Shown piece by piece: positions 1,553-43,825 of a DNA stretch of 43,825 nt (the stretch's first letter is position 1; each line of letters starts with the position of its first letter). The notes under the pieces were generated by a model. The model had not been told where the DNA came from, did no database searches, and saw only the letters and a list, made by a program, of their open reading frames with translations. The position numbers and the translations under genes were made by a program. Where the stretch lies: the IMG/VR virus record IMGVR_UViG_2711768001_000012. One strand, written 5' to 3'. Source of the DNA: a virus. Lineage: Duplodnaviria; Heunggongvirae; Uroviricota; Caudoviricetes.

Positions 1553-1741
1553 TCACGAGGACTGAAGTTTCTCGCAATTAAAATTTATCAGTTTTACTTT
1601 CTGCTCTCTGGAAACGCCTGCTTCTTTTTTACCTGAGAGCATTTTTTCGCATTCTGATTTCGTTAGTTTAGATTTTGAATATCTTGTCCAGTTAGTAGGA
1701 GTGCCACCTTCCTTTTCAATAGTGGCGGTAATTTTATACAT
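1553..1741 (-). CDS. Small hypothetical protein (YdaC-like); start uncertain
   Basis: ORF 1553-1813; the internal ATG at 1741 (MYKITATIEKEGG...) has a strong GGAGGTG Shine-Dalgarno, whereas the 1813 start lies inside the upstream coding sequence. Confidence 0.45.
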   Translation of the reverse strand: MYKITATIEKEGGTPTNWTRYSKSKLTKSECEKMLSGKKEAGVSREQKVKLINFNCEKLQSS

Positions 1742-9795: not shown

Positions 9796-10228
9796 ATGAA
9801 AAATATTGCGACAGGCGACGTTCTTGAACGTATCCGCAGACTGGCCCCGTCACATGTAACCGCGCCATTCAAGACGGTAGCGGAGTGGCGCGAGTGGCAA
9901 CTTTCCGAAGGCCAGAAACGTTGTGAGGAGATCAACCGTCAGAATCGTCAGTTGCGGGTGGAAAAAATTCTGAATCGCTCTGGCATCCAGCCATTGCACC
10001 GCAAATGCTCGTTTTCGAATTACCAGGTGCAGAACGAAGCGCAGCGATACGCGTTGAGTCAGGCGAAATCCATCGCTGATGAACTGATGACCGGGTGTAC
10101 AAATTTTGCGTTCAGCGGAAAACCTGGTACCGGGAAGAACCACTTAGCGGCAGCTATCGGGAATCGCCTGCTGAAAGACGGTCAGACAGTGATTGTGGTT
10201 ACCGTGGCTGATGTTATGAGTGCCCTGC
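9796..10228 (+). CDS. DnaC-like helicase loader ATPase (YdaV-like), 3' end lost in N-run
   Basis: Walker A motif FSGKPGTGKNHLAAAIG; the ORF runs into the N-run at 10229 and the track ORF fuses it artificially with the next gene. Confidence 0.75.
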
Positions 10229-10269
10229 NNNNNNNNNNNNNNNNNNNNNNNNNNNNNNNNNNNNNNNNN
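10229..10269. other. Run of 41 N (gap or masked sequence)
   Basis: Ambiguous bases; too short to hold the missing ~100 codons of the DnaC-like gene. Confidence 0.99.
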
Positions 10270-10293
10270 AATTTTTACCGGGAGGAAATTTTT

Positions 10294-11055
10294 ATGGAGA
10301 CTGTTTTTGACGCACTGAAAGCAATGGGAAAAGCCACATCCATAGAACTTGCTGCGCGACTTGATATCAGTCGTGAAGAAGTGCTGAACGAACTATGGGA
10401 ACTGAAAAAAGCTGGTTTCGTTGATAAAAGCGCGTACACCTGGCGTGTGGCTGATAACAACGTTCAGCAGGAACAGCCAATGCAGGCAGAACTGCCGGAA
10501 GAAACCACCACGGCAACTGTAGTGAAAATCTCAGAGTGCGATTTAACCGCGACGATTGAACAACGCGGACCACAAACGGCGGATGAACTGGCTACGCTGT
10601 TCGGTACAACATCCCGCAAAGTTGCTTCAACGCTGGCAATGGCAATCAGCAAAGGACGCCTGATTCGCGTAAACCAGAACAGTAAATTTCGTTACTGCAT
10701 GCCGGGCGATAATTTACCAGCAGAGCCGAAAGCTGCATCGGTAGCGGAAACTGATGGTAAAGCCTTTCCTCAGCCAGCCGGTGTTGCGTTACCAGTACAG
10801 GAAGCGGCAACACAGGAAGATATTAAAACAGAAACTGTGGCGGACATTGTGCAGTCGCTGCCATCGTTTACTGAAACGCAAGCGGATGACCTAGTTTTAC
10901 CATCGCTGCATATGGCAAACCGCGAACTGCGTCGGGCGAAAAATCATGTCCAGAAGTGGGAGCGAGTCTGCGCCGCGCTGCGGGAGCTGAACAAGCACCG
11001 GGATATTGTCCGACAGATTGTCGATTCCTCCAGTCGTATTGTGTCGGAAAAGTGA
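10294..11055 (+). CDS. Hypothetical protein with N-terminal winged-helix-like region
   Basis: ATG 10294 preceded by GGGAGG; [43 protein letters not shown] resembles a wHTH; acidic/Ala-rich middle. Confidence 0.5.
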
Positions 11056-11487: not shown

Positions 11488-11625
11488 ACGTTACTAGATC
11501 AAAGAGCATTAGTTCATATGTAAATTGACATTTTTCTGGCACAGGGGAGAGCTAGCGTGGTTGTCCGCTTTGTGCCAATAGCGGACATTGCTGGCTCATG
11601 GTATGTTAGTTTAAGGAGGCAGGTT

Positions 11626-12648
11626 ATGCCCTGTATTTCGCTGTGGTATAATAGTTGCGCAATTGATACAAGGGAGCGTTACATCGTGAAAATTGTTTTC
11701 GAGGTTAATGGAAAGAAAGTTCCACTAAAATCTTTAAAATACATAAGCAAAAAAGATCAACTCGAAGTAATGAAAAACTGGTTCTTTGAAAACTTTGAAG
11801 ATCCGGCAAATGCTTGTCCGTATGAAAGTAGAGAAGGTGGCTATGCTTACATATATGGCGGGCCGTATGATGCGAGCGAAGAACTACAATCCATCTTCGG
11901 TCAATATGTTAAATCTGAGTATATTGAGGAATTAGTAGATGAATTACAAACACAATGTTTTGACTGGTCTGGAAACTCAAATAATATAGATGATTGGTAC
12001 GATGATGATATCTACGACGCTGTAACGTCTTCCGGTAATCCGTATTTAAAATTCATTGATAATATCGATAAAATAAAAAAACTTGCAAAAGATAAAACTG
12101 AACAACAGCAAAAAAACCACTTGCTTAGTTTGCTCTACACGAATGTTATTACAGCTTTGGAAACGCTTTATGTTGAGCTATTCATTAATTCTATAGAGAA
12201 AGATGATGTCTACATAGCCAATTGTATAGAAAAAGGTAAGACTGAATTTAAAGTAAGCAAAGATATTGCTGCGTTGCCTTTCAAGGGTGAACCCATCGAG
12301 AAAATTAGGGGAGAGCTAATCAGGTCAATCAAGGAACACTTGATCAGTGCAAGCTGGCATAGCACTAAAAAGGTAATCGACCGCTATGAAGCTACATTCG
12401 ATATAAAAGTACAAAAAGACTGTCCGATAGAAGCTATTGAATTGGCAACCCTCAATCGAAATCACTTAGTGCATCGTGGTGGAAAGGATAAAGAAGGGAA
12501 CCTCGTAGTGATTACAGACCAGGATCTTGAAACGCTGATTGAAAATGCATCGAACCTGGCAATTATGCTCTACAACAGTTTAAATGTAGCAACGAATAAA
12601 ACCACCATTTTGCAACCAGATGACAAACCGTTCATTCATGAATTTTAA
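11626..12648 (+). CDS. Hypothetical protein with HEPN-like Rx4H motif (cargo gene A)
   Basis: ATG 11626 preceded by AAGGAGG (11613-11619); alternative GTG start at 11686; low GC; RNHLVH motif near the C-terminus (ATLNRNHLVHRGG). Confidence 0.6.
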   Translation: MPCISLWYNSCAIDTRERYIVKIVFEVNGKKVPLKSLKYISKKDQLEVMKNWFFENFEDPANACPYESREGGYAYIYGGPYDASEELQSIFGQYVKSEYIEELVDELQTQCFDWSGNSNNIDDWYDDDIYDAVTSSGNPYLKFIDNIDKIKKLAKDKTEQQQKNHLLSLLYTNVITALETLYVELFINSIEKDDVYIANCIEKGKTEFKVSKDIAALPFKGEPIEKIRGELIRSIKEHLISASWHSTKKVIDRYEATFDIKVQKDCPIEAIELATLNRNHLVHRGGKDKEGNLVVITDQDLETLIENASNLAIMLYNSLNVATNKTTILQPDDKPFIHEF

Positions 12649-12663
12649 TAGCGCAGGTCATAC

Positions 12664-13665
12664 ATGGATATTCGCACACGAAAGACAAAATTTTTAGAGT
12701 CGTTAGATTCAACTGAAGTGATACGCAAAGCAGTAAGTCTCGCTATAGATTGCATTATTGATAATCATAATAGTAATGAAGATACCCCCTTAGTTATTAC
12801 CAGCTATGATGATCTCTGTAGAATCCAGGTGCTAAATTATGTACAGGAGTTTTGCGAAGCTGCATTCCCTGATATGGATGAATATTACTTTAGTCCTAAC
12901 ATACTTCGCATCAACGGCAAGACTAGTGAAGAAGCTTGTATTAACTTAATTAAACTCTTAAGAAGTACAAAAGGCATGCTATTCTGGTCCGATGCCCCAT
13001 CGTGGTTCGCTAGCCTCCCCGACGGATTATTCCATGTTGTTAACATTGATCAAAAAATCGTTACTCGCGGCCTTAATAAGAAAAACTCTAAGCCGACAAT
13101 AATCAATAAAGATTACAGTGTAGATACACTACTATCAGAGCTATTTTTGAATGGCGCACACATGGAGCAACCCAACGTACACAACGTTTCTGAGGGAAAC
13201 ATGAAGTTCTATGATGAATGCCATGCTGGATTAATCAGACCAATACCCGCTCCAATAGGCGCGTCATACGATGAAGAGATCACAATTAATTCTCCAGATT
13301 GGCAAAAGCTCGCGTGTGTAGCTTTACGCCGCTATCAGTCGAAGGAATGTCATGACGGAATGCAATGGGATACAACCGATCATGGTTGGACTGATGTAAT
13401 CGCGTATCCATTCGTCGAAGAAATACAATCAATGGATAATAGTGGTTATCGACAATGTTTAGTTGGGCTGGTCACAATAAACAATTCAAATGCAAATTCT
13501 CCGTACCTATCTACCGTTTGGATACATCCATTTTATCGCAGGAGAGGGTTATTAAGTAAGTTATGGCCAAAATTACAAGAGTTATATGGAAGTAACTTCG
13601 AAATTGAGCGACCTAATGAAAATATGAAAGCATTTCTGAAAAGTGCGAAACACGCAGATTACTAA
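12664..13665 (+). CDS. Hypothetical protein with tentative C-terminal GNAT-like motif (cargo gene B)
   Basis: 333-aa ORF 15 bp downstream of gene A, same strand, low GC; VWIHPFYRRRGLLSKLWPKL resembles GNAT motif A. Confidence 0.55.
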   Translation: MDIRTRKTKFLESLDSTEVIRKAVSLAIDCIIDNHNSNEDTPLVITSYDDLCRIQVLNYVQEFCEAAFPDMDEYYFSPNILRINGKTSEEACINLIKLLRSTKGMLFWSDAPSWFASLPDGLFHVVNIDQKIVTRGLNKKNSKPTIINKDYSVDTLLSELFLNGAHMEQPNVHNVSEGNMKFYDECHAGLIRPIPAPIGASYDEEITINSPDWQKLACVALRRYQSKECHDGMQWDTTDHGWTDVIAYPFVEEIQSMDNSGYRQCLVGLVTINNSNANSPYLSTVWIHPFYRRRGLLSKLWPKLQELYGSNFEIERPNENMKAFLKSAKHADY

Positions 13666-14220
13666 TTTATGAATCAGTCTGTGGAGTTAGGGTTGGTGTG
13701 AACAAGTAGGGTAAGAGCCTCAACGTGATGCTATGCCGACCTGCTCCCTGAGAATTCACACAGAAGGCTGCTAGCAATGTCTGCAGATCGCTCAAAGCGG
13801 ACTAAAATGTTGGCTTGTTTCTGACTTAGAGCATTTAAGGAAGTGCTGGTGGTGACTGGTTGTTGTGTTCCATTTCTACAGAATAAAATCACAGAAACTA
13901 TACCCAATAGTTGTATTGAATCACTGACGAGACAGCCTCATATTTATCAGGACTGGTGTGCGTCTAATACAGGGGGTTGTCGTGCTGGTTCTCAAATGTG
14001 CGCTGGCTATTGCGGCTGTAATGGCAATTTATTGTCTTGCTGTTGTTCTTATGGAGCGGCTTTCTGATTGATTACATACTGGCTAGAAAAAAGGTGTTAC
14101 CTTGGTTTATCTTTGTCCGGCAAGGTGCGCTCATTAATCTTAAGTAAATTTATTGCTCAAGTATTCAGATTACTTCTTATGGTTGAAGTCTCCTGTCAAT
14201 GTAGAACCAATATATTTACA

Positions 14221-14256
14221 AAAATGAGACCCGTCGGGGATAGCCCTGCCGGGTCT
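14221..14256 (-). terminator. Candidate rho-independent terminator for the YeaR-like gene
   Basis: Inverted repeat AGACCCG (14227-14233) / CGGGTCT (14250-14256); on the minus strand it is followed by a U-run (rc of TACAAAAATG). Confidence 0.4.
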
Positions 14257-14285
14257 GACTGTTAAAGCATTTTTAATATGATCAT

Positions 14286-14624
14286 CTATTTTTTGGTGCT
14301 ATAGACTTTTTCGCCCGAAAAGTCTGGAGCGACCCAAAAGTTAATATTAAACTGAGCATCATCGCTTAGTTCAACACGGTGCCAGTATTGTGGTGGGCTT
14401 GTTGCAAAAGCGCCAGCATTAATGACTACTTTTATCTCCGGTTCAGTAGCATTCTCATCAGTAAAACCATAATATGTTACAGTGCCTTCCATTACGCACA
14501 ACTGCCCAAAAACACCTGCTGCTGTATTATGATGTGTTAATAACGCTGAAGGTACGTTCTCTTTTGTGAAGAACGGAGTTGAGCGTTTGATTACCCAATC
14601 TTTAGGAATTCTCTTGTGTGTCAT
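14286..14624 (-). CDS. DUF1971/YeaR-like protein
   Basis: 112-aa product from ATG 14624 with GGAGGAGGTGG Shine-Dalgarno; resembles E. coli YeaR as recalled from memory (HHNTAAGVFGQLCV...GTVTYYGF...PPQYWHRVE...FNINFWVAP); opposite strand to neighbours. Confidence 0.6.
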   Translation of the reverse strand: MTHKRIPKDWVIKRSTPFFTKENVPSALLTHHNTAAGVFGQLCVMEGTVTYYGFTDENATEPEIKVVINAGAFATSPPQYWHRVELSDDAQFNINFWVAPDFSGEKVYSTKK

Positions 14625-15437
14625 AACCACCTCCTCCAAAACATGCATTAAAAATGCATCTTTTGGAGGGTTATGTCAAGCTGTTATGAAACACATAATT
14701 GATATGTTGATTAGAGGAGAAGATAGAATAAATATGGTTGTTTTTCGTATAACTATTTGTTTTACTTTTAGTTTATGCATTCTGTGTGTTAGGAATAAGT
14801 TATTAAAGTTTAATCAAAAAATCTCGATGTAGTCCACATAGATTACTGTTACTGAACCTTATTGTGTGTATTAGTTGTGTTCTGAAATTTCAGCTTAATT
14901 ATTTATGATGTATTTTTTAACGATAAATATTTTCCCAGGATACCTTTACTGTGTATATAAATAAATTATATACGCATAAATAATGTAAAGGCGTCCTTTT
15001 AGATATATCTTATCAAATGTTAATGACTTGAGTGGGAAATATGATTCCAGCAACTTATCATGTGGCTACTTTATAAAAATAATGCCCATATAAAACAACA
15101 AGCGAAAAGGATTACGGATAAAAAAGGAGCGAGATGTGCGAACTTGTTATTTTCCATGTTTAACCACCTTAAATAATTGATGATGACGGGATGATTGCAT
15201 CTGTAATGCTTTTATTGAAATGTTATGATAAAAAAGAACTTTTGCATAACATTAAAATGTAATTTATCTAATCGTTTTTAATAATAAGTGTCGTATTTCT
15301 ATCCTTGTACCAGCTATTTGATATGTAGTGTTTGTTCATGCTATGTGGGGCTTTACACCATAGCCAGTTTATTTATACTTTATTCGTCAGCCTGAACAAC
15401 TGGCATCTGCTGCGCTGCGCCATCGAGAGATTGAGAA

Positions 15438-16037
15438 ATGGCGCATATACAACTGGTCAAACAAACCTCTTCTGGTTTACTTCTCCCGGCGACGCCGGAG
15501 AGTTGCGATTTTCTGCATCAAATCAAAATAGGTGAGTGGATACACGCAGACTTTAAGCGTGTGCGTAACTACGCATTCCACAAGCGTTTTTTCAAACTCC
15601 TGCAACTGGGATTCGATTACTGGACTCCGGTCGGTGGGGCGATCACGCCTCGCGAACGAGAACTGCTGTCTGGTTTCGTTGATTACCTGTGCGAATCAGT
15701 TGGTCGGGAACACACGCCAGCCCTGAGTGATGCCGCAGAGCAATACCTTAACACCGTTGCGACTCGTAGAACCCGGGATACGGCGTTGCTAAAGTCGTTT
15801 GAGGCTTTCCGCGAGTGGGTAACCATTCAGGCCGGATTTTACACCGAGCATATTTATCCGGACGGTAGCCGTGGGCGTCGGGCAAAATCCATCGCTTTTG
15901 CGAATATGGACGAAGTCGAGTTTCAGCAGGTTTATAAATCTGTACTGAATGTGCTGTGGAACTGGATTCTGTTCCGTAAATTCTCCTCTCAGGAGGAAGT
16001 TGAAAATGTGGCCGCACAACTACTGGAGTTTGCGTAA
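15438..16037 (+). CDS. DUF1367-family phage protein (YbcN-like)
   Basis: 199-aa ORF in nin-region position; family assignment recalled from DLP12/Qin-type prophages. Confidence 0.55.
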   Translation: MAHIQLVKQTSSGLLLPATPESCDFLHQIKIGEWIHADFKRVRNYAFHKRFFKLLQLGFDYWTPVGGAITPRERELLSGFVDYLCESVGREHTPALSDAAEQYLNTVATRRTRDTALLKSFEAFREWVTIQAGFYTEHIYPDGSRGRRAKSIAFANMDEVEFQQVYKSVLNVLWNWILFRKFSSQEEVENVAAQLLEFA

Positions 16038-16327
16038 TGGTGAATTTACGTAAAGCGGCTAAAGGCCAGATGTGCCAGATCAGAATCCCTGGCTACTGCA
16101 ATCACAATCCCGAAACCTCTGTGCTGGCGCATTACAGGCTGGCGGGGACGTGCGGAACAGCGACAAAACCACATGATATGCAGGCGGCGATAGCCTGTAG
16201 CTCATGCCACGATCTAATCGACGGGCGGGTAAAAACCAGCGATTACACCAAAGAAGAATTGCGCCTGATGCATGCTGAAGGGGTTTTTCGCACACAAGAA
16301 ATCTGGAGAAAGAAAGGTCATTTATGA
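16037..16327 (+). CDS. DUF1364-family zinc-binding phage protein (YbcO-like)
   Basis: 96 aa with Cys/His clusters (CQIRIPGYCNH...ACSSCHD); start overlaps the upstream stop (TAATG). Confidence 0.55.
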   Translation: MVNLRKAAKGQMCQIRIPGYCNHNPETSVLAHYRLAGTCGTATKPHDMQAAIACSSCHDLIDGRVKTSDYTKEELRLMHAEGVFRTQEIWRKKGHL

Positions 16328-16866
16328 TTTACCCAACGAATACAGGAAAAAGCGGAGAACACCTTCGCCTCACCACGCTGGAAAGTGTCTGGATTCAGGG
16401 AAAACTACGTATGTGGGGGCGCTGGTCGTATATTGGCGGTGGCAGGTCAGGGAATATGTTCAATCAGTTGTTGGCATCCAAAAAACTGACGAAAACAGCC
16501 ATTAATGAAGCCCTGCGCAGAATGAAAAAAGCGGGAATAGAGAAAGCTGAGCTGGAAGCGTTTTTGCGAGAGATGATCAACGGCAAGCAAAAGAGCTGGC
16601 TGGCGCATTGTACTGATGCAGAGGCGTTATGTATTGATCGAGTCATAAGTGAGGTGCTGGCAGAGCATCCAGGATTGATTTGCATTCTCCGGCAACGCTA
16701 TGAAGGGCGGGGGATGACTAAGCGCAAAATGGCTGAATTGCTAAATGATGCACACCCAGAGTGGTGTTTTAGCACATGCGAAAAACGGATTGCTAATTGG
16801 TTAGCTGTTGCTGAGTATGCCCTATATATTCCCATGCGTGAATCATTTGCTGAGAAAATGGCTTGA
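16324..16866 (+). CDS. Putative late-gene antiterminator (Q-like)
   Basis: 180-aa ORF overlapping the upstream stop, last gene before a terminator and the lysis/late region; position-based with weak family recollection. Confidence 0.5.
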   Translation: MIYPTNTGKSGEHLRLTTLESVWIQGKLRMWGRWSYIGGGRSGNMFNQLLASKKLTKTAINEALRRMKKAGIEKAELEAFLREMINGKQKSWLAHCTDAEALCIDRVISEVLAEHPGLICILRQRYEGRGMTKRKMAELLNDAHPEWCFSTCEKRIANWLAVAEYALYIPMRESFAEKMA

Positions 16867-17320: not shown

Positions 17321-17910
17321 GGCTGGTTTATTGTATGCCAAATGATTATTAAAAAGGTTGTGTTAATAACAAGATCCGAAATAATATGCCTGCATATTTT
17401 TATCTTGCTTATATTCTGCATATTGTGCATAGCAGGCTCATCCCTGCAATCAAAACTGTATGATGAGTATTTTTTGTTTTCCTTTTTTCCAGTCATCTGA
17501 TGATGACCTGCTTCTTTTTAATCCGGATCGACATCAGTTTTTTAAGATAATTCCTGCGAGTTATATGCATAAATGCCACAAACTCCGCATTTTATGTGGT
17601 TGGGAGTTGCCGGGCGCGCAGTGAGTTTGCTAAGAAAACTCCTGCATGGTGAATCCCCCTGTGCGGTGGGGTGATACCATTAACCTTTTCTGTCGCCGAC
17701 AGGTATCACGAACATTTTGTTCACCGGGAGGCACCCGGCACCATGCACTTCAATAGATTCTCTCCACATTATGGATATTCTTTCAGAATATCCCACGCAG
17801 ACTTTGTGTAAATGTTAACAAATGTGCGTTTTATTTGATCTGATTCGCTGTTTGAGCGTCCAAAACAACGGTATATATAATCCTTTACTATATGACATAT
17901 GTGAGGAAAA

Positions 17911-18339
17911 ATGGGTTTTCGTAGCGCATCAATTCTTACGTTGATTATTAGTGGGATTATTATCGGGTGCACTGATGCTGTATCGACAAATTATCATGAC
18001 CGTACATCATATTACTCCGATAAAGCAATAGAGACACAGTATGTGAGTTCATCTGAACGTACTTCTGATGTTAGTGAGGATATCCGTCTGTATGCCCATC
18101 AAATCAAGAGCGCCATCGAAAAACAGTTCGGGGATGCGAGTAAGTATTCAGGAAAAGAGTGTACACTGAGAATGCATATGGCCCCGAATGGCCTTCTACT
18201 GGAGGTTAAAAGAGAAAGTGGAGACCTCGATTTATGTCGTGAAGCGATGAATGCGATAAAGAATGCTGATATACCTGCCCCCCCTTCGCCGGAAGTATAT
18301 AAAGTATTTCAAAATGGGGTGCTGGATTTTAAACCCTGA
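17911..18339 (+). CDS. Lipoprotein with TolA C-terminal (domain III)-like domain
   Basis: Signal peptide plus lipobox IIGC; GAGGA Shine-Dalgarno; C-terminal YAHQIKSAIEKQFGDASKYSGKECTLRMHMAPNGLLLEVKRESGDLDLCREAMNAIKNADIPAPPSPEVYKVFQNGVLDFKP closely parallels the E. coli TolA C-terminus as recalled. Confidence 0.75.
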   Translation: MGFRSASILTLIISGIIIGCTDAVSTNYHDRTSYYSDKAIETQYVSSSERTSDVSEDIRLYAHQIKSAIEKQFGDASKYSGKECTLRMHMAPNGLLLEVKRESGDLDLCREAMNAIKNADIPAPPSPEVYKVFQNGVLDFKP

Positions 18340-18489: not shown

Positions 18490-18885
18490 GTGGGATTAAA
18501 GAAAATCGTTATGTTGACTTTTTGGGTCGGTTTTGTTGCGGGATGCACACCTTTACACCCTTCAGATTGCCACAAAACTACTGCTACAGGTAGTTGCAGT
18601 TCAGGACGCTGGGATGATCAGGATGAATGGGGGGCGCAAGCGCGGGGAATCAGAGCTGCAATTAATGCCAAACTTGATGAGCCGCATAACTGGAAAGGGA
18701 AAAAATGCAGGTTGCATATGGAATTCTCTCAGGATGGCACGGCGTTAAAAATATCTACCAGTAACGGTGATAAAGCCTATTGCGAAGCGATAAAGTCCGC
18801 AGCTCATAAAGCCAAATTTCCGGCCTTCAACAATCCGGAAGTCTACAGAGATTTTCAGAAATCTGGCTTTGACATGCGAGGTTAG
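18490..18885 (+). CDS. Second lipoprotein with TolA domain III-like C-terminus (paralog)
   Basis: GTG start with GAGGAG Shine-Dalgarno; signal peptide plus lipobox VAGC; C-terminus KKCRLHMEFSQDGTALKISTSNGDKAYCEAIKSAAHKAKFPAFNNPEVYRDFQKSGFDM aligns with the first lipoprotein and with TolA domain III. Confidence 0.7.
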   Translation: MGLKKIVMLTFWVGFVAGCTPLHPSDCHKTTATGSCSSGRWDDQDEWGAQARGIRAAINAKLDEPHNWKGKKCRLHMEFSQDGTALKISTSNGDKAYCEAIKSAAHKAKFPAFNNPEVYRDFQKSGFDMRG

Positions 18886-19352: not shown

Positions 19353-19853
19353 TGCCTCCATCATTACGAAAAGTCGTTGCTGCTGCTATTGGTGGCGGAG
19401 CAATTGCTATAGCATCAGTGTTAATCACTGGCCCAAGTGGTAACGATGGTCTGGAAGGTGTCAGCTACATACCATACAAAGATATTGTTGGTGTATGGAC
19501 TGTATGTCACGGGCATACAGGAAANNNNNNNNNNNNNNNNNNNNNNNNNNNNNNNNNNNNNNNNNNNNNNNNNNNNNNNNNNNNNNNNNNNNNNNNNNNN
19601 NNNNNNNNNNNNNNNNNNNNNNNNNNNNNNNNNNNNNNNNNNNNNNNNNNNNNNNNNNNNNNNNNNNNNNNNNNNNNNNNNNNNNNNNNNNNNNNNNNNN
19701 NNNNNNNNNNNNNNNNNNNNNNNNNNNNNNNNNNNNNNNNNNNNNNNNNNNNNNNNNNNNNNNNNNNNNNNNNNNNNNNNNNNNNNGCAATGGAAAGGTC
19801 TCATGACTCGTCGTGAGATTGAGCGTGAAATCTGTTTGTGGGGTCAGCAATGA
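19352..19853 (+). CDS. SAR endolysin (phage 21 R-like lysozyme), middle replaced by N-run
   Basis: N-terminal SAR segment [27 protein letters not shown]; the C-terminus [21 protein letters not shown] appears in a different frame after the N-run, so the N length is not frame-true. Confidence 0.8.
19525..19786. other. Run of 262 N inside the endolysin gene
   Basis: Ambiguous bases; flanking endolysin segments are in different frames. Confidence 0.99.
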
Positions 19854-40099: not shown

Positions 40100-40448
40100 N
40101 NNNNNNNNNNNNNNNNNNNNNNNNNNNNNNNNNNNNNNNNNNNNNNNNNNNNNNNNNNNNNNNNNNNNNNNNNNNNNNNNNNNNNNNNNNNNNNNNNNNN
40201 NNNNNNNNNNNNNNNNNNNNNNNNNNNNNNNNNNNNNNNNNNNNNNNNNNNNNNNNNNNNNNNNNNNNNNNNNNNNNNNNNNNNNNNNNNNNNNNNNNNN
40301 NNNNNNNNNNNNNNNNNNNNNNNNNNNNNNNNNNNNNNNNNNNNNNNNNNNNNNNNNNNNNNNNNNNNNNNNNNNNNNNNNNNNNNNNNNNNNNNNNNNN
40401 NNNNNNNNNNNNNNNNNNNNNNNNNNNNNNNNNNNNNNNNNNNNNNNN
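40100..40448. other. Run of 349 N covering the I/J junction
   Basis: Ambiguous bases hide the 3' end of I and the 5' end of J. Confidence 0.99.

Positions 40449-43825
<3,377 letters not shown>

What the first reader, a model, noticed from the sequence alone, without database searches (positions are those of the whole stretch)
14221..14624. Reverse-oriented YeaR/DUF1971-like gene with its own terminator inside the accessory island
A 112-aa ORF on the minus strand, with a very strong Shine-Dalgarno (GGAGGAGGTGG) and a downstream hairpin plus U-run, resembles the YeaR/DUF1971 family (stress- and tellurite-associated in E. coli). It is transcribed against the surrounding rightward phage transcription, which is typical of an independently expressed lysogenic-conversion moron. 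It may be part of the same acquired island as the HEPN-like/GNAT-like cassette.
Basis: partly seen in the sequence, partly recalled or inferred. Interest (0 to 1): 0.35.

Follow-up and report, generated by a model that had tools for sequence, protein, structure and literature searches.

The report
Prophage gene wired to nitric-oxide sensor
A small gene carried backwards in a Rac-type E. coli prophage is a close copy of a Salmonella nitric-oxide-stress gene (STM1808 type), and it carries a near-perfect binding site for the host's NO-sensing repressor NsrR, so the lysogen probably switches it on when it meets nitric oxide.

Summary
A 112-aa ORF lies at 14286-14624 on the minus strand. It has an 8-nt Shine-Dalgarno and a downstream hairpin plus U-run, and it gives a full-length DUF1971 hit (E 2e-26).

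- The protein is not a YeaR orthologue (42% identity) and not a TehB methyltransferase.
- It belongs to the tightly conserved STM1808-type group: 79% identity to the Salmonella protein beside dsbB, and about 80% to PDB 3DL3.

The new point is a 23-bp NsrR operator at 14640-14662, AAGATGCATTTTTAATGCATGTT.
- It scores 27.8 bits on a matrix built from 26 published E. coli sites. Only ytfE scores higher.
- It sits 15 nt before the ATG and covers the -10 of a TTGACA-17-CATTTT promoter.
- The same operator and promoter layout occurs upstream of all but one of the enterobacterial orthologues in 52 of 80 species loci.

I therefore read the gene as an NO-inducible, NsrR-repressed moron.

The gene occurs in about 8% of complete E. 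coli genomes, in every sampled context beside the ninB-ybcO-Q module of Rac-type prophages. The cargo on its other side varies, so it is not part of the HEPN/GNAT cassette. Regulation and phenotype are inferred, not shown. I class it as a new member of a known kind, of moderate interest.

The parts
14286..14624 (-). CDS, 112 aa, STM1808-type DUF1971 protein (small cupin-like beta-barrel). H32, H82 and E85 are conserved.
   Evidence: RefSeq WP_000149055.1.
14627..14637 (-). Shine-Dalgarno GGAGGAGGTGG. The GGAGG core ends 5 nt from the ATG.
   Evidence: Read from the sequence. Weaker variants (GATGAGGTGG, GGGAGGTGG) occur in other alleles.
14640..14662 (.). Predicted NsrR operator, an 11-1-11 inverted repeat. 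Gene strand: AAGATGCATTTTTAATGCATGTT.
   Evidence: Two mismatches to the ytfE site, with 0 of 100 shuffles giving a match. PSWM from 26 published sites gives 27.8 bits; the next best in the window is 13.8; 0 of 2000 shuffles reach it. Conserved upstream of orthologues in 52 of 80 loci and in all sampled E. coli alleles.
14651..14656 (-). Predicted -10 hexamer CATTTT, at operator positions 7-12. An overlapping TTTAAT lies at 14652-14647; other alleles have TATAAT there.
   Evidence: Chromosomal orthologues have the same layout: a -35, 17-18 nt, then TATTTT, CATATT or TATATT at operator positions 7-12. Inferred; no transcription start data.
14674..14679 (-). Predicted -35 hexamer TTGACA, 17 nt upstream of CATTTT.
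   Evidence: Conserved in all sampled E. coli alleles.
14220..14256 (-). Intrinsic-terminator-like hairpin (14256-14227) plus U-run (14224-14220).
   Evidence: Kept in three allele families, with one compensatory pair.
14633..14669 (.). Extended 17-3-17 palindrome (94% complementary). It contains the NsrR site and reaches into the SD.
   Evidence: Specific to this allele. Significance unknown.

Best explanation
The gene is a self-contained lysogenic-conversion module carried by Rac-type prophages. It consists of a sigma-70 promoter (TTGACA, 17 nt, CATTTT), an NsrR operator covering the -10 region, a strong ribosome-binding site, a 112-aa STM1808-type DUF1971 protein, and an intrinsic terminator.

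Proposed mechanism:
1. Without nitric oxide, the host [Fe-S] repressor NsrR sits on the operator and blocks RNA polymerase.
2. NO, or nitrite/nitrate respiration, damages the NsrR cluster. Repression is lifted and the gene is transcribed from the prophage regardless of the phage's own lytic/lysogenic state.
3. The product is a small cupin-like metal-binding protein. By analogy with Salmonella STM1808, it helps the cell grow under nitrosative stress. The biochemical step is unknown. The most likely options are binding or buffering of zinc released from NO-damaged proteins, or a metal-centred reaction on an NO-derived species.

Shown here: gene, family, fold, operator sequence, its cross-species conservation, and its modular genomic context.
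Inferred: NsrR binding, NO induction, transcription start (about 14644), and phenotype.
For: Family:
- DUF1971, full length.
- E 3.5e-59 and about 80% identity to 3dl3.
- 72-82% identity to a tight group of 111-114-aa proteins in Enterobacteriaceae and Vibrionaceae.
- H31, H32, C43, E46, H82 and E85 are invariant.
- The Salmonella homologue lies in the order fadR-nhaB-dsbB-DUF1971. From memory, that is the STM1805-1808 gene order.
- STM1808 is cited as an NsrR-regulon gene with a role in virulence (PMC7527575).
- A 'tehB homolog' was predicted in the NsrR regulon of all enterobacteria (PMC1274295).

Operator:
- The published 11-1-11 model and site list come from PMC5320621.
- The window site scores 27.8 bits. 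Leave-one-out scores for known sites are ytfE 30.6, hcp 25.1, yeaR 22.5 and hmp 17.9.
- It is unique in the window.
- 52 of 80 orthologous loci have a site of 20 bits or more. All enterobacterial loci but one, L010 at 12.2 bits, do. The sites lie 15-27 nt before the ATG; the one non-enterobacterial locus, Photobacterium L056, is at 43 nt. The best score elsewhere in each 8-kb locus has a median of 10.7.
- DNA homology to chromosomal orthologues runs from the stop codon exactly to the far edge of the operator, 14288-14663.
- The -35/-10/operator geometry is shared with those orthologues.

Gene integrity: in the two divergent allele groups synonymous changes exceed non-synonymous ones, 4:3 and 8:4. 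The CDS is intact in 453 genomes.

Fold: model pLDDT 89.5. Foldseek TM is 0.95 to 3dl3, and about 0.5 to cupin metalloenzymes.
Against: - There is no expression, binding or phenotype data for this gene. No paper on the prophage copy was found.
- The -10 in this allele is weak. CATTTT matches 3 of 6; the overlapping TTTAAT lacks the -11 A. The consensus scanner found no promoter here.
- The most common E. coli allele has a degraded left half-site (AACACGCATTT, 20.7 bits) and a consensus TATAAT. Regulation may therefore differ between alleles.
- The zinc binding and the H32/H82 requirement of STM1808 rest on my memory of Karlinsey et al. 2012 (PMID 22831173), which could not be read here.
- Most Vibrio and Shewanella orthologues have no adjacent NsrR site, so the link is not universal in the family.
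Confidence: 0.7

Rival explanations
1. It is a phage-borne YeaR equivalent: the same role and regulation as E. coli yeaR-yoaG, induced by nitrate through NarL and repressed by NsrR.
For: It has the same Pfam domain and fold. yeaR also carries an NsrR site.
Against: It is only 42% identical to YeaR, against 79-82% to the STM1808-type group. No yoaG-like ORF lies downstream: the small minus-strand ORFs have no Pfam hit. The upstream sequence beyond the operator is unrelated. NarL sites were not tested.
Confidence: 0.1
2. It is a tellurite or chalcogen resistance determinant, as the database names 'TehB family protein' and 'Tellurite resistance protein B' suggest.
For: RefSeq and PDB names. It is homologous to the N-terminal domain of H. 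influenzae TehB (3m70, E 5e-11).
Against: It has no SAM-methyltransferase domain. It is 112 aa long and scores 49 bits against the 303-bit TehB equivalog cut-off. The name derives from a fused domain, not from an assay.
Confidence: 0.05
3. It is a silent passenger: a captured chromosomal fragment with no current benefit, hitch-hiking beside the essential late-regulation module.
For: The -10 in this allele is weak. The gene lies in AT-rich DNA (29-41% GC) of the kind H-NS often silences. It has no PADLOC hit, and its PHROG family has unknown function.
Against: The CDS is intact in 453 of 457 genomes. The protein is identical even in degraded Rac remnants that lost the left arm. Synonymous changes exceed non-synonymous ones. 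Operator, SD and terminator are all retained.
Confidence: 0.12
4. It serves the phage rather than the host, for example by sensing host NO or redox state to influence induction, or by acting during lytic growth.
For: It sits between the replication and late-regulation genes. In the literature NO is reported to modulate induction of lambdoid prophages (titles and abstracts seen).
Against: Orientation, own promoter and terminator uncouple it from phage transcription. Its closest relatives are ordinary chromosomal genes. It is retained in remnants that can no longer form phage.
Confidence: 0.03

Closest known systems
Salmonella enterica STM1808 (NsrR-regulated DUF1971 protein; Karlinsey et al. 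2012, PMID 22831173)
   Same: - 79% identity over the full length, and nearly the same size (112 against 113 aa).
- H32, H82 and E85 are conserved.
- A strong NsrR operator lies just before the SD and overlaps the -10.
   Different: - The location is a Rac-type prophage, not the dsbB-adjacent chromosomal site.
- The operator-to-ATG gap is 15 nt rather than 27.
- The -35 and upstream DNA are unrelated.
- GC3 is 0.35 against 0.54.
- The function of the prophage copy is untested.
Kluyvera/Leclercia/Pantoea/Buttiauxella chromosomal DUF1971 genes (L004-L025)
   Same: - They are the nearest clade in the NJ tree, at 79-82% identity.
- The operator-to-ATG spacing is the same at 16-18 nt, and the promoter geometry is the same.
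   Different: These copies also carry a Fur-box-like sequence 64-66 nt upstream of the ATG. The prophage copy lacks it.
Aliivibrio fischeri 'TehB' VfR98, PDB 3DL3
   Same: About 80% identity. The predicted structure superposes at TM 0.95 and rmsd 1.2 A.
   Different: The A. fischeri gene has no NsrR site in the 250 nt upstream (L069, 7.4 bits). It is a structural-genomics entry with no functional data.
E. coli YeaR (PDB 3BB6; yeaR-yoaG operon)
   Same: Same domain and fold (TM 0.82). It is also an NsrR target.
   Different: It is a paralogue at 42% identity. It is co-transcribed with yoaG. It is chromosomal and core.
TehB SAM-dependent methyltransferase (H. influenzae 3M70; NCBIfam NF008992)
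   Same: The N-terminal DUF1971 domain of the H. influenzae protein is homologous (E 5e-11).
   Different: The methyltransferase domain is absent, and the protein fails the equivalog cut-off at 49 against 303 bits.

Membership tests
Pfam DUF1971 (PF09313) | Profile match above the gathering score over the whole domain | tested here: met
   92 bits against 23.1, profile positions 1-80 of 80.
STM1808-type DUF1971 group | Full-length, high identity to the Salmonella protein encoded beside dsbB | tested here: met
   79% over 112 aa. The Salmonella locus reads fadR-nhaB-dsbB-DUF1971. Equating that gene with locus tag STM1808 rests on remembered gene order.
STM1808-type DUF1971 group | Histidines H32 and H82 (reported as needed for Zn binding and NO resistance; from memory of PMID 22831173) | tested here: met
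   Both are present at the same numbering and are invariant in 14 orthologues. They are also conserved in YeaR and H. influenzae TehB.
STM1808-type DUF1971 group | NsrR operator in the promoter | tested here: met
   A 27.8-bit site lies 15 nt from the ATG. It is conserved in 52 of 80 loci. This is sequence evidence only; binding was not tested.
STM1808-type DUF1971 group | Zinc binding and contribution to nitrosative-stress resistance | not testable with these tools
   Needs ICP-MS on purified protein and growth assays.
STM1808-type DUF1971 group | Positional orthology (beside dsbB) | tested here: not met
   The gene lies in a Rac-type prophage between variable cargo and the ninB-like gene. 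It is therefore a xenologue, not a positional orthologue.
YeaR (yeaR-yoaG) | Closest similarity to YeaR, and a downstream yoaG | tested here: not met
   42% identity against 79-82% to the other group. There is no yoaG-like ORF downstream.
TehB tellurite methyltransferase | SAM-dependent methyltransferase domain; NCBIfam equivalog score of at least 303 | tested here: not met
   49.1 bits; only profile positions 11-106 of 289 are matched.
Phage moron (independently expressed lysogenic-conversion gene) | Own promoter and terminator | tested here: inconclusive
   A promoter and operator are predicted and match the layout in orthologues. The terminator is supported by conservation and one covarying pair. 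No transcript data are available.
Phage moron (independently expressed lysogenic-conversion gene) | Present in some but absent from closely related phages at the same position | tested here: met
   Only 3 of 8 phage records with the ninB-ybcO-Q module carry it. Rac-SA53 and vB_EcoS-683R6 have other genes there.
Phage moron (independently expressed lysogenic-conversion gene) | Expression in the lysogen and benefit to the host | not testable with these tools
   Needs RNA-seq or reporter fusions and phenotype assays.

The most novel reading that the evidence does not exclude
Rac-type prophages have captured a complete NO-responsive host stress module, promoter, NsrR operator and gene together. 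They act as the only vehicle of the STM1808-type nitrosative-stress function in E. coli, so that about 8% of strains gain an extra NsrR-regulon member by lysogeny.

The module is then domesticated: the identical protein is kept in degraded Rac remnants. Its operator and -10 are retuned between alleles. The window allele has a stronger operator and a weaker -10. The commonest allele has a weaker left half-site and a consensus TATAAT. That retuning would give strain-specific set-points of NO induction.
Probability: 0.35. Interest if true: 0.55.

Novelty: new member of a known kind. Interest (0 to 1): 0.42.

Why it matters
Nitric oxide is a main weapon of macrophages and of inflamed gut and bladder. 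In Salmonella, STM1808 is cited as contributing to virulence (PMC7527575).

E. coli has no chromosomal copy of this gene type. A distant-mode blastn search found only the prophage alleles, in 457 of 5426 genomes. If the prophage copy is NsrR-controlled and protective, then:
- carriage of this Rac variant becomes a strain-specific fitness factor in inflamed hosts;
- it is a clean example of a prophage gene plugged into a host stress regulon through a captured operator;
- database labels that imply tellurite resistance would be shown to mislead.

Tried and rejected
- Simple promoter/terminator scan. It found neither the promoter nor the terminator on the minus strand. The thresholds were too strict: it requires a loop of 8 or less and at least 4 of 6 matches per hexamer.
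- Rfam, at gathering and permissive thresholds, and tRNA scan. Nothing relevant lies in 13600-15500; the only hit was a chance miRNA match at E 0.12.
- Hok/Gef or other small-toxin gene in 13754-14285, as seen beside the gene in other alleles. The small ORFs have no Pfam hit. Rejected.
- Fur box in the window promoter. The best match has 8 mismatches, which is chance level. Rejected for the prophage copy, although the box is present in Kluyvera-group orthologues.
- FNR site. Reading the upstream sequence by eye showed no TTGAT-N4-ATCAA. NarL heptamers were not tested formally.
- PADLOC. No hit for the DUF1971 protein or for the two cassette proteins.
- Literature. Karlinsey et al. 2012 could not be opened by PMC id or DOI. 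Searches for RefSeq accessions and for NsrR plus prophage gave nothing on this gene.
- The idea that the gene belongs to the HEPN/GNAT island. Rejected from comparison of contexts.

Full report
**1. What is there**

The minus strand carries a 112-aa ORF at 14286-14624. Its ATG is preceded by GGAGGAGGTGG (14637-14627). The AGGAGGTG stretch is an 8-nt match to the anti-Shine-Dalgarno, and the GGAGG core ends 5 nt before the start. A longer 120-aa reading from the ATG at 14648 has no ribosome-binding site. All orthologues begin at the position of the 112-aa start, and RefSeq annotates the 339-nt CDS as WP_000149055.1.

A stem, AGACCCG...CGGGTCT (14256-14227), starts 29 nt after the stop codon. 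It is followed by CA and five T (14224-14220). It folds at -17.2 kcal/mol, z -2.5. Three diverged E. coli allele families keep this hairpin and U-run. One allele shows a G-C to A-U compensatory change. The flanking genes on both sides are on the plus strand.

**2. What the protein is**

- Pfam DUF1971 matches over the whole domain (E 2.3e-26).
- Against solved structures, the best match by far is 3DL3, the Aliivibrio fischeri protein labelled TehB (E 3.5e-59, about 80% identity).
- E. coli YeaR (3BB6) follows at E 1.6e-24 and 42% identity.
- The N-terminal domain of H. influenzae TehB (3M70) is third at E 5e-11.
- The NCBIfam TehB equivalog scores 49 bits against a 303-bit cut-off. There is no methyltransferase domain, so 'tellurite resistance' is a name and not a property.

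A search of the large protein database finds a tight group of 111-114-aa proteins at 72-82% identity. They occur in Salmonella, Kluyvera, Leclercia, Citrobacter, Klebsiella, Raoultella, Vibrio, Aliivibrio, Photobacterium and Shewanella. H31, H32, C43, E46, H82 and E85 are invariant.

The Salmonella member lies in the order fadR-nhaB-dsbB-DUF1971. As I remember the LT2 numbering, that is STM1805 to STM1808. STM1808 is cited in held papers as an NsrR-regulon gene with a role in virulence (PMC7527575). From memory of the abstract of Karlinsey et al. 2012 (PMID 22831173), STM1808 is a zinc metalloprotein whose H32 and H82 are needed for zinc binding and NO resistance. That paper could not be opened. 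The window protein has histidines at exactly those positions.

An AlphaFold model (pLDDT 89.5) superposes on 3DL3 at TM 0.95. Beyond the family, its neighbours are cupin metalloenzymes at TM about 0.5. That fits a small metal-binding beta-barrel.

**3. The promoter carries a first-rank NsrR operator**

The gene-strand sequence just upstream of the SD is AAGATGCATTTTTAATGCATGTT (14662-14640). NsrR sites are 11-1-11 inverted repeats. The best site in E. coli CFT073, ytfE, is AAGATGCATTTAAAATGCATCTT (PMC5320621, Table 4).

- The window site differs from the ytfE site at two positions, and no such match occurs in 100 shuffles of the window.
- On a palindromic weight matrix built from the 26 distinct published sites, it scores 27.8 bits. 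Leave-one-out scores for known sites are 30.6 for ytfE, 25.1 for hcp, 24.3 for tehA, 22.5 for yeaR and 17.9 for hmp.
- The next best position in the 43.8-kb window scores 13.8.
- None of 2000 shuffles of the AT-rich intergenic region reaches 27.8.

**4. Comparative support**

I fetched 80 orthologous loci from different species and scanned the 250 nt upstream of each gene.

- 52 loci have a site of 20 bits or more, typically 24-30 bits. These include every enterobacterial locus except L010 (Leclercia adecarboxylata, 12.2 bits), plus Photobacterium L056. The enterobacterial sites lie 15-27 nt before the ATG; L056 is at 43 nt.
- The best score anywhere else in each roughly 8-kb locus has a median of 10.7.
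- Most Vibrio, Aliivibrio and Shewanella genes lack an adjacent site.

Rodionov et al. 2005 had already predicted a 'tehB homolog' in the NsrR regulon of all enterobacteria and of Photobacterium profundum (PMC1274295).

DNA similarity between the window and chromosomal orthologues (73-75%) runs from the stop codon to the far edge of the operator, 14288-14663, and stops there. What the prophage shares with them is therefore CDS, leader and operator.

The promoter geometry is also shared. In the orthologues a -35 (TTTACA, TTGACG or similar) is followed after 17-18 nt by a -10-like hexamer at operator positions 7-12 (TATTTT, CATATT or TATATT). The window has TTGACA (14679-14674), 17 nt, then CATTTT (14656-14651) in the same register. 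NsrR bound there would occlude the -10. The predicted start is near 14644. This step is inference, since no transcript data are available.

**5. Genomic setting**

The window is a Rac-type prophage. It holds the RalA sRNA, recE-like and kilR/sieB-type genes, a NinB-like/HNH/Q-like module at 15438-16866, and trkG.

The gene occurs in 457-466 of 5426 complete E. coli genomes. Copies are at 95-100% identity and nearly all are single chromosomal copies. A distant-mode search finds no more diverged copy. In E. coli this gene type therefore exists only as the prophage allele.

In all eleven contexts examined, the gene diverges from the DUF1367-DUF1364-DUF1133 module across an AT-rich spacer of about 800 bp. 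The other side differs each time:
- the HEPN-like and GNAT-like pair, in this window;
- three other hypothetical genes, in strain LD39-1;
- QueH;
- KilA-N plus Hok;
- a 1210-aa protein plus Hok;
- chromosomal MFS, gamma-glutamylcyclotransferase and LysR genes, in the commonest form, where the prophage's left arm has gone.

So the gene borders a variable cargo hotspot and is not part of the HEPN/GNAT cassette.

The gene is itself accessory. Only 3 of 8 phage records with the same late-regulation module carry it. Rac-SA53 and vB_EcoS-683R6 have other genes at that position.

A neighbour-joining tree places the prophage clade as sister to the Kluyvera/Leclercia/Pantoea chromosomal clade. Its GC3 of 0.35 compares with 0.57-0.67 in most sampled members of that clade, though K. 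intermedia (L024) is 0.40. In the two divergent allele groups, synonymous differences outnumber non-synonymous ones, 4:3 and 8:4. Remnant prophages encode the identical protein.

**6. Allele differences in the control region**

The CDS is at least 99% identical in 309 genomes. The 66-nt promoter stretch of the window type is found by megablast in only 17.

| Allele | Operator (gene strand) | Score | Other features |
|---|---|---|---|
| Commonest (Rac remnants) | AACACGCATTTATAATGCATGTT | 20.7 bits | consensus TATAAT; SD weakened to GATGAGGTGG in most copies |
| Hok-linked | AAGGTGCATTTATAATGCATGTT | 26.6 bits | consensus TATAAT |
| Window | AAGATGCATTTTTAATGCATGTT | 27.8 bits | TTTAAT instead of TATAAT |

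Only the window allele has the operator embedded in a 17-3-17 palindrome that reaches the SD. Whether this reflects regulatory tuning is open.

**7. Verdict**

- DUF1971 membership holds, and the gene looks like an independent moron.
- It is not YeaR-like in the strict sense.
- It is not a tellurite gene.
- It is not part of the neighbouring cassette.

The best reading is an NsrR-repressed, NO-inducible STM1808-type protein supplied to E. coli by Rac-type prophages (confidence about 0.7). The regulatory part is more secure than the phenotype. It is a new member of a known kind. The gene and family are annotated, and the family's NsrR link is published for chromosomal copies. I found no description of the prophage-borne, operator-bearing copy in the literature that could be searched.

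Noticed in passing
L004-L025, 64-66 nt upstream of the DUF1971 ATG: Chromosomal orthologues of the Kluyvera/Leclercia/Pantoea/Buttiauxella group carry a Fur-box-like sequence. An example is GATAATGAGATTCATTATC, and matches have 2-6 mismatches to the 19-bp consensus recalled from memory. It sits at a fixed position just upstream of the -35, which suggests dual iron and NO control. The Salmonella/Citrobacter/Klebsiella group and the prophage copy lack it.
   Followed up: partly
window 14625-14690, compared with L003 and L083-L089: The promoter/operator stretch differs at 5-6 positions between alleles whose CDS differs by one synonymous change. Only 17 genomes share the window's version. In the window allele these changes create a near-perfect 37-nt palindrome (14633-14669) that includes the SD. 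Possible causes are quasi-palindrome correction or regulatory retuning. This is unexplained.
   Followed up: partly
window about 11586-13753: The HEPN-like (363 aa) and GNAT-like (333 aa) gene pair occupies a swappable slot between the DUF977 gene and the DUF1971 module. Other genomes hold unrelated cargo there. Both proteins match PHROGs of unknown function, have no PADLOC hit, and give only sub-threshold Pfam hits to HEPN_RES_NTD1 and Acetyltransf_1.
   Followed up: partly
window 14663-15437: A spacer of about 800 bp at 29-31% GC, with no annotated gene, separates the DUF1971 promoter from the NinB-like gene. A promoter-like site, TTTACA-16-TATACT, lies at 15352-15379 on the plus strand. An IS1 has inserted in this spacer in strain PK8566.
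   Followed up: no
window 13754-14285: About 530 bp downstream of the gene is shared with other E. coli and Shigella copies. It has no convincing ORF, no Pfam hit and no Rfam hit. In the other allele family this position holds a truncated hok/gef gene.
   Followed up: partly
L083, L087-L089 (E. coli E308, CREC-591, PK8566, D7): The commonest context of the gene in E. coli is a Rac remnant whose whole left arm is missing. MFS transporter, gamma-glutamylcyclotransferase and LysR genes abut the 3' side of the DUF1971 module, yet the encoded protein is identical.
   Followed up: partly
window 1557-1735 and 17614-17800: Rfam finds the RalA antitoxin sRNA (225 bits) and the STnc100 sRNA (86.6 bits), both above their gathering scores.
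   Followed up: no
window 17911-18339 and 18490-18885: Two adjacent small proteins with TolA C-terminal domains (E 2e-23 and 1e-14) lie between the Q-like gene and the lysis genes. They are possible interference or exclusion morons.
   Followed up: no
L067, L070, L077 (Neptunomonas, Parendozoicomonas): These loci have no NsrR site next to the DUF1971 gene but have a 22-24-bit site elsewhere within 4 kb. It may sit in front of an operon or a neighbouring NO-response gene.
   Followed up: no
PP818812.1 (Actinobacillus phage vB_Apl-pPE4), record 14116-15447: A phage attributed to Actinobacillus pleuropneumoniae matches the E. coli Rac NinB-YbcO-Q module at 91.6% DNA identity. That is unexpectedly high for such a distant host.
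   Followed up: no
window 10229-10269, 19525-19786, 40100-40448, 41410-41607, 41879-42120, 43095-43463: There are runs of N in the window. ORFs that cross them, such as 9796-11055, are artificial fusions.
   Followed up: no
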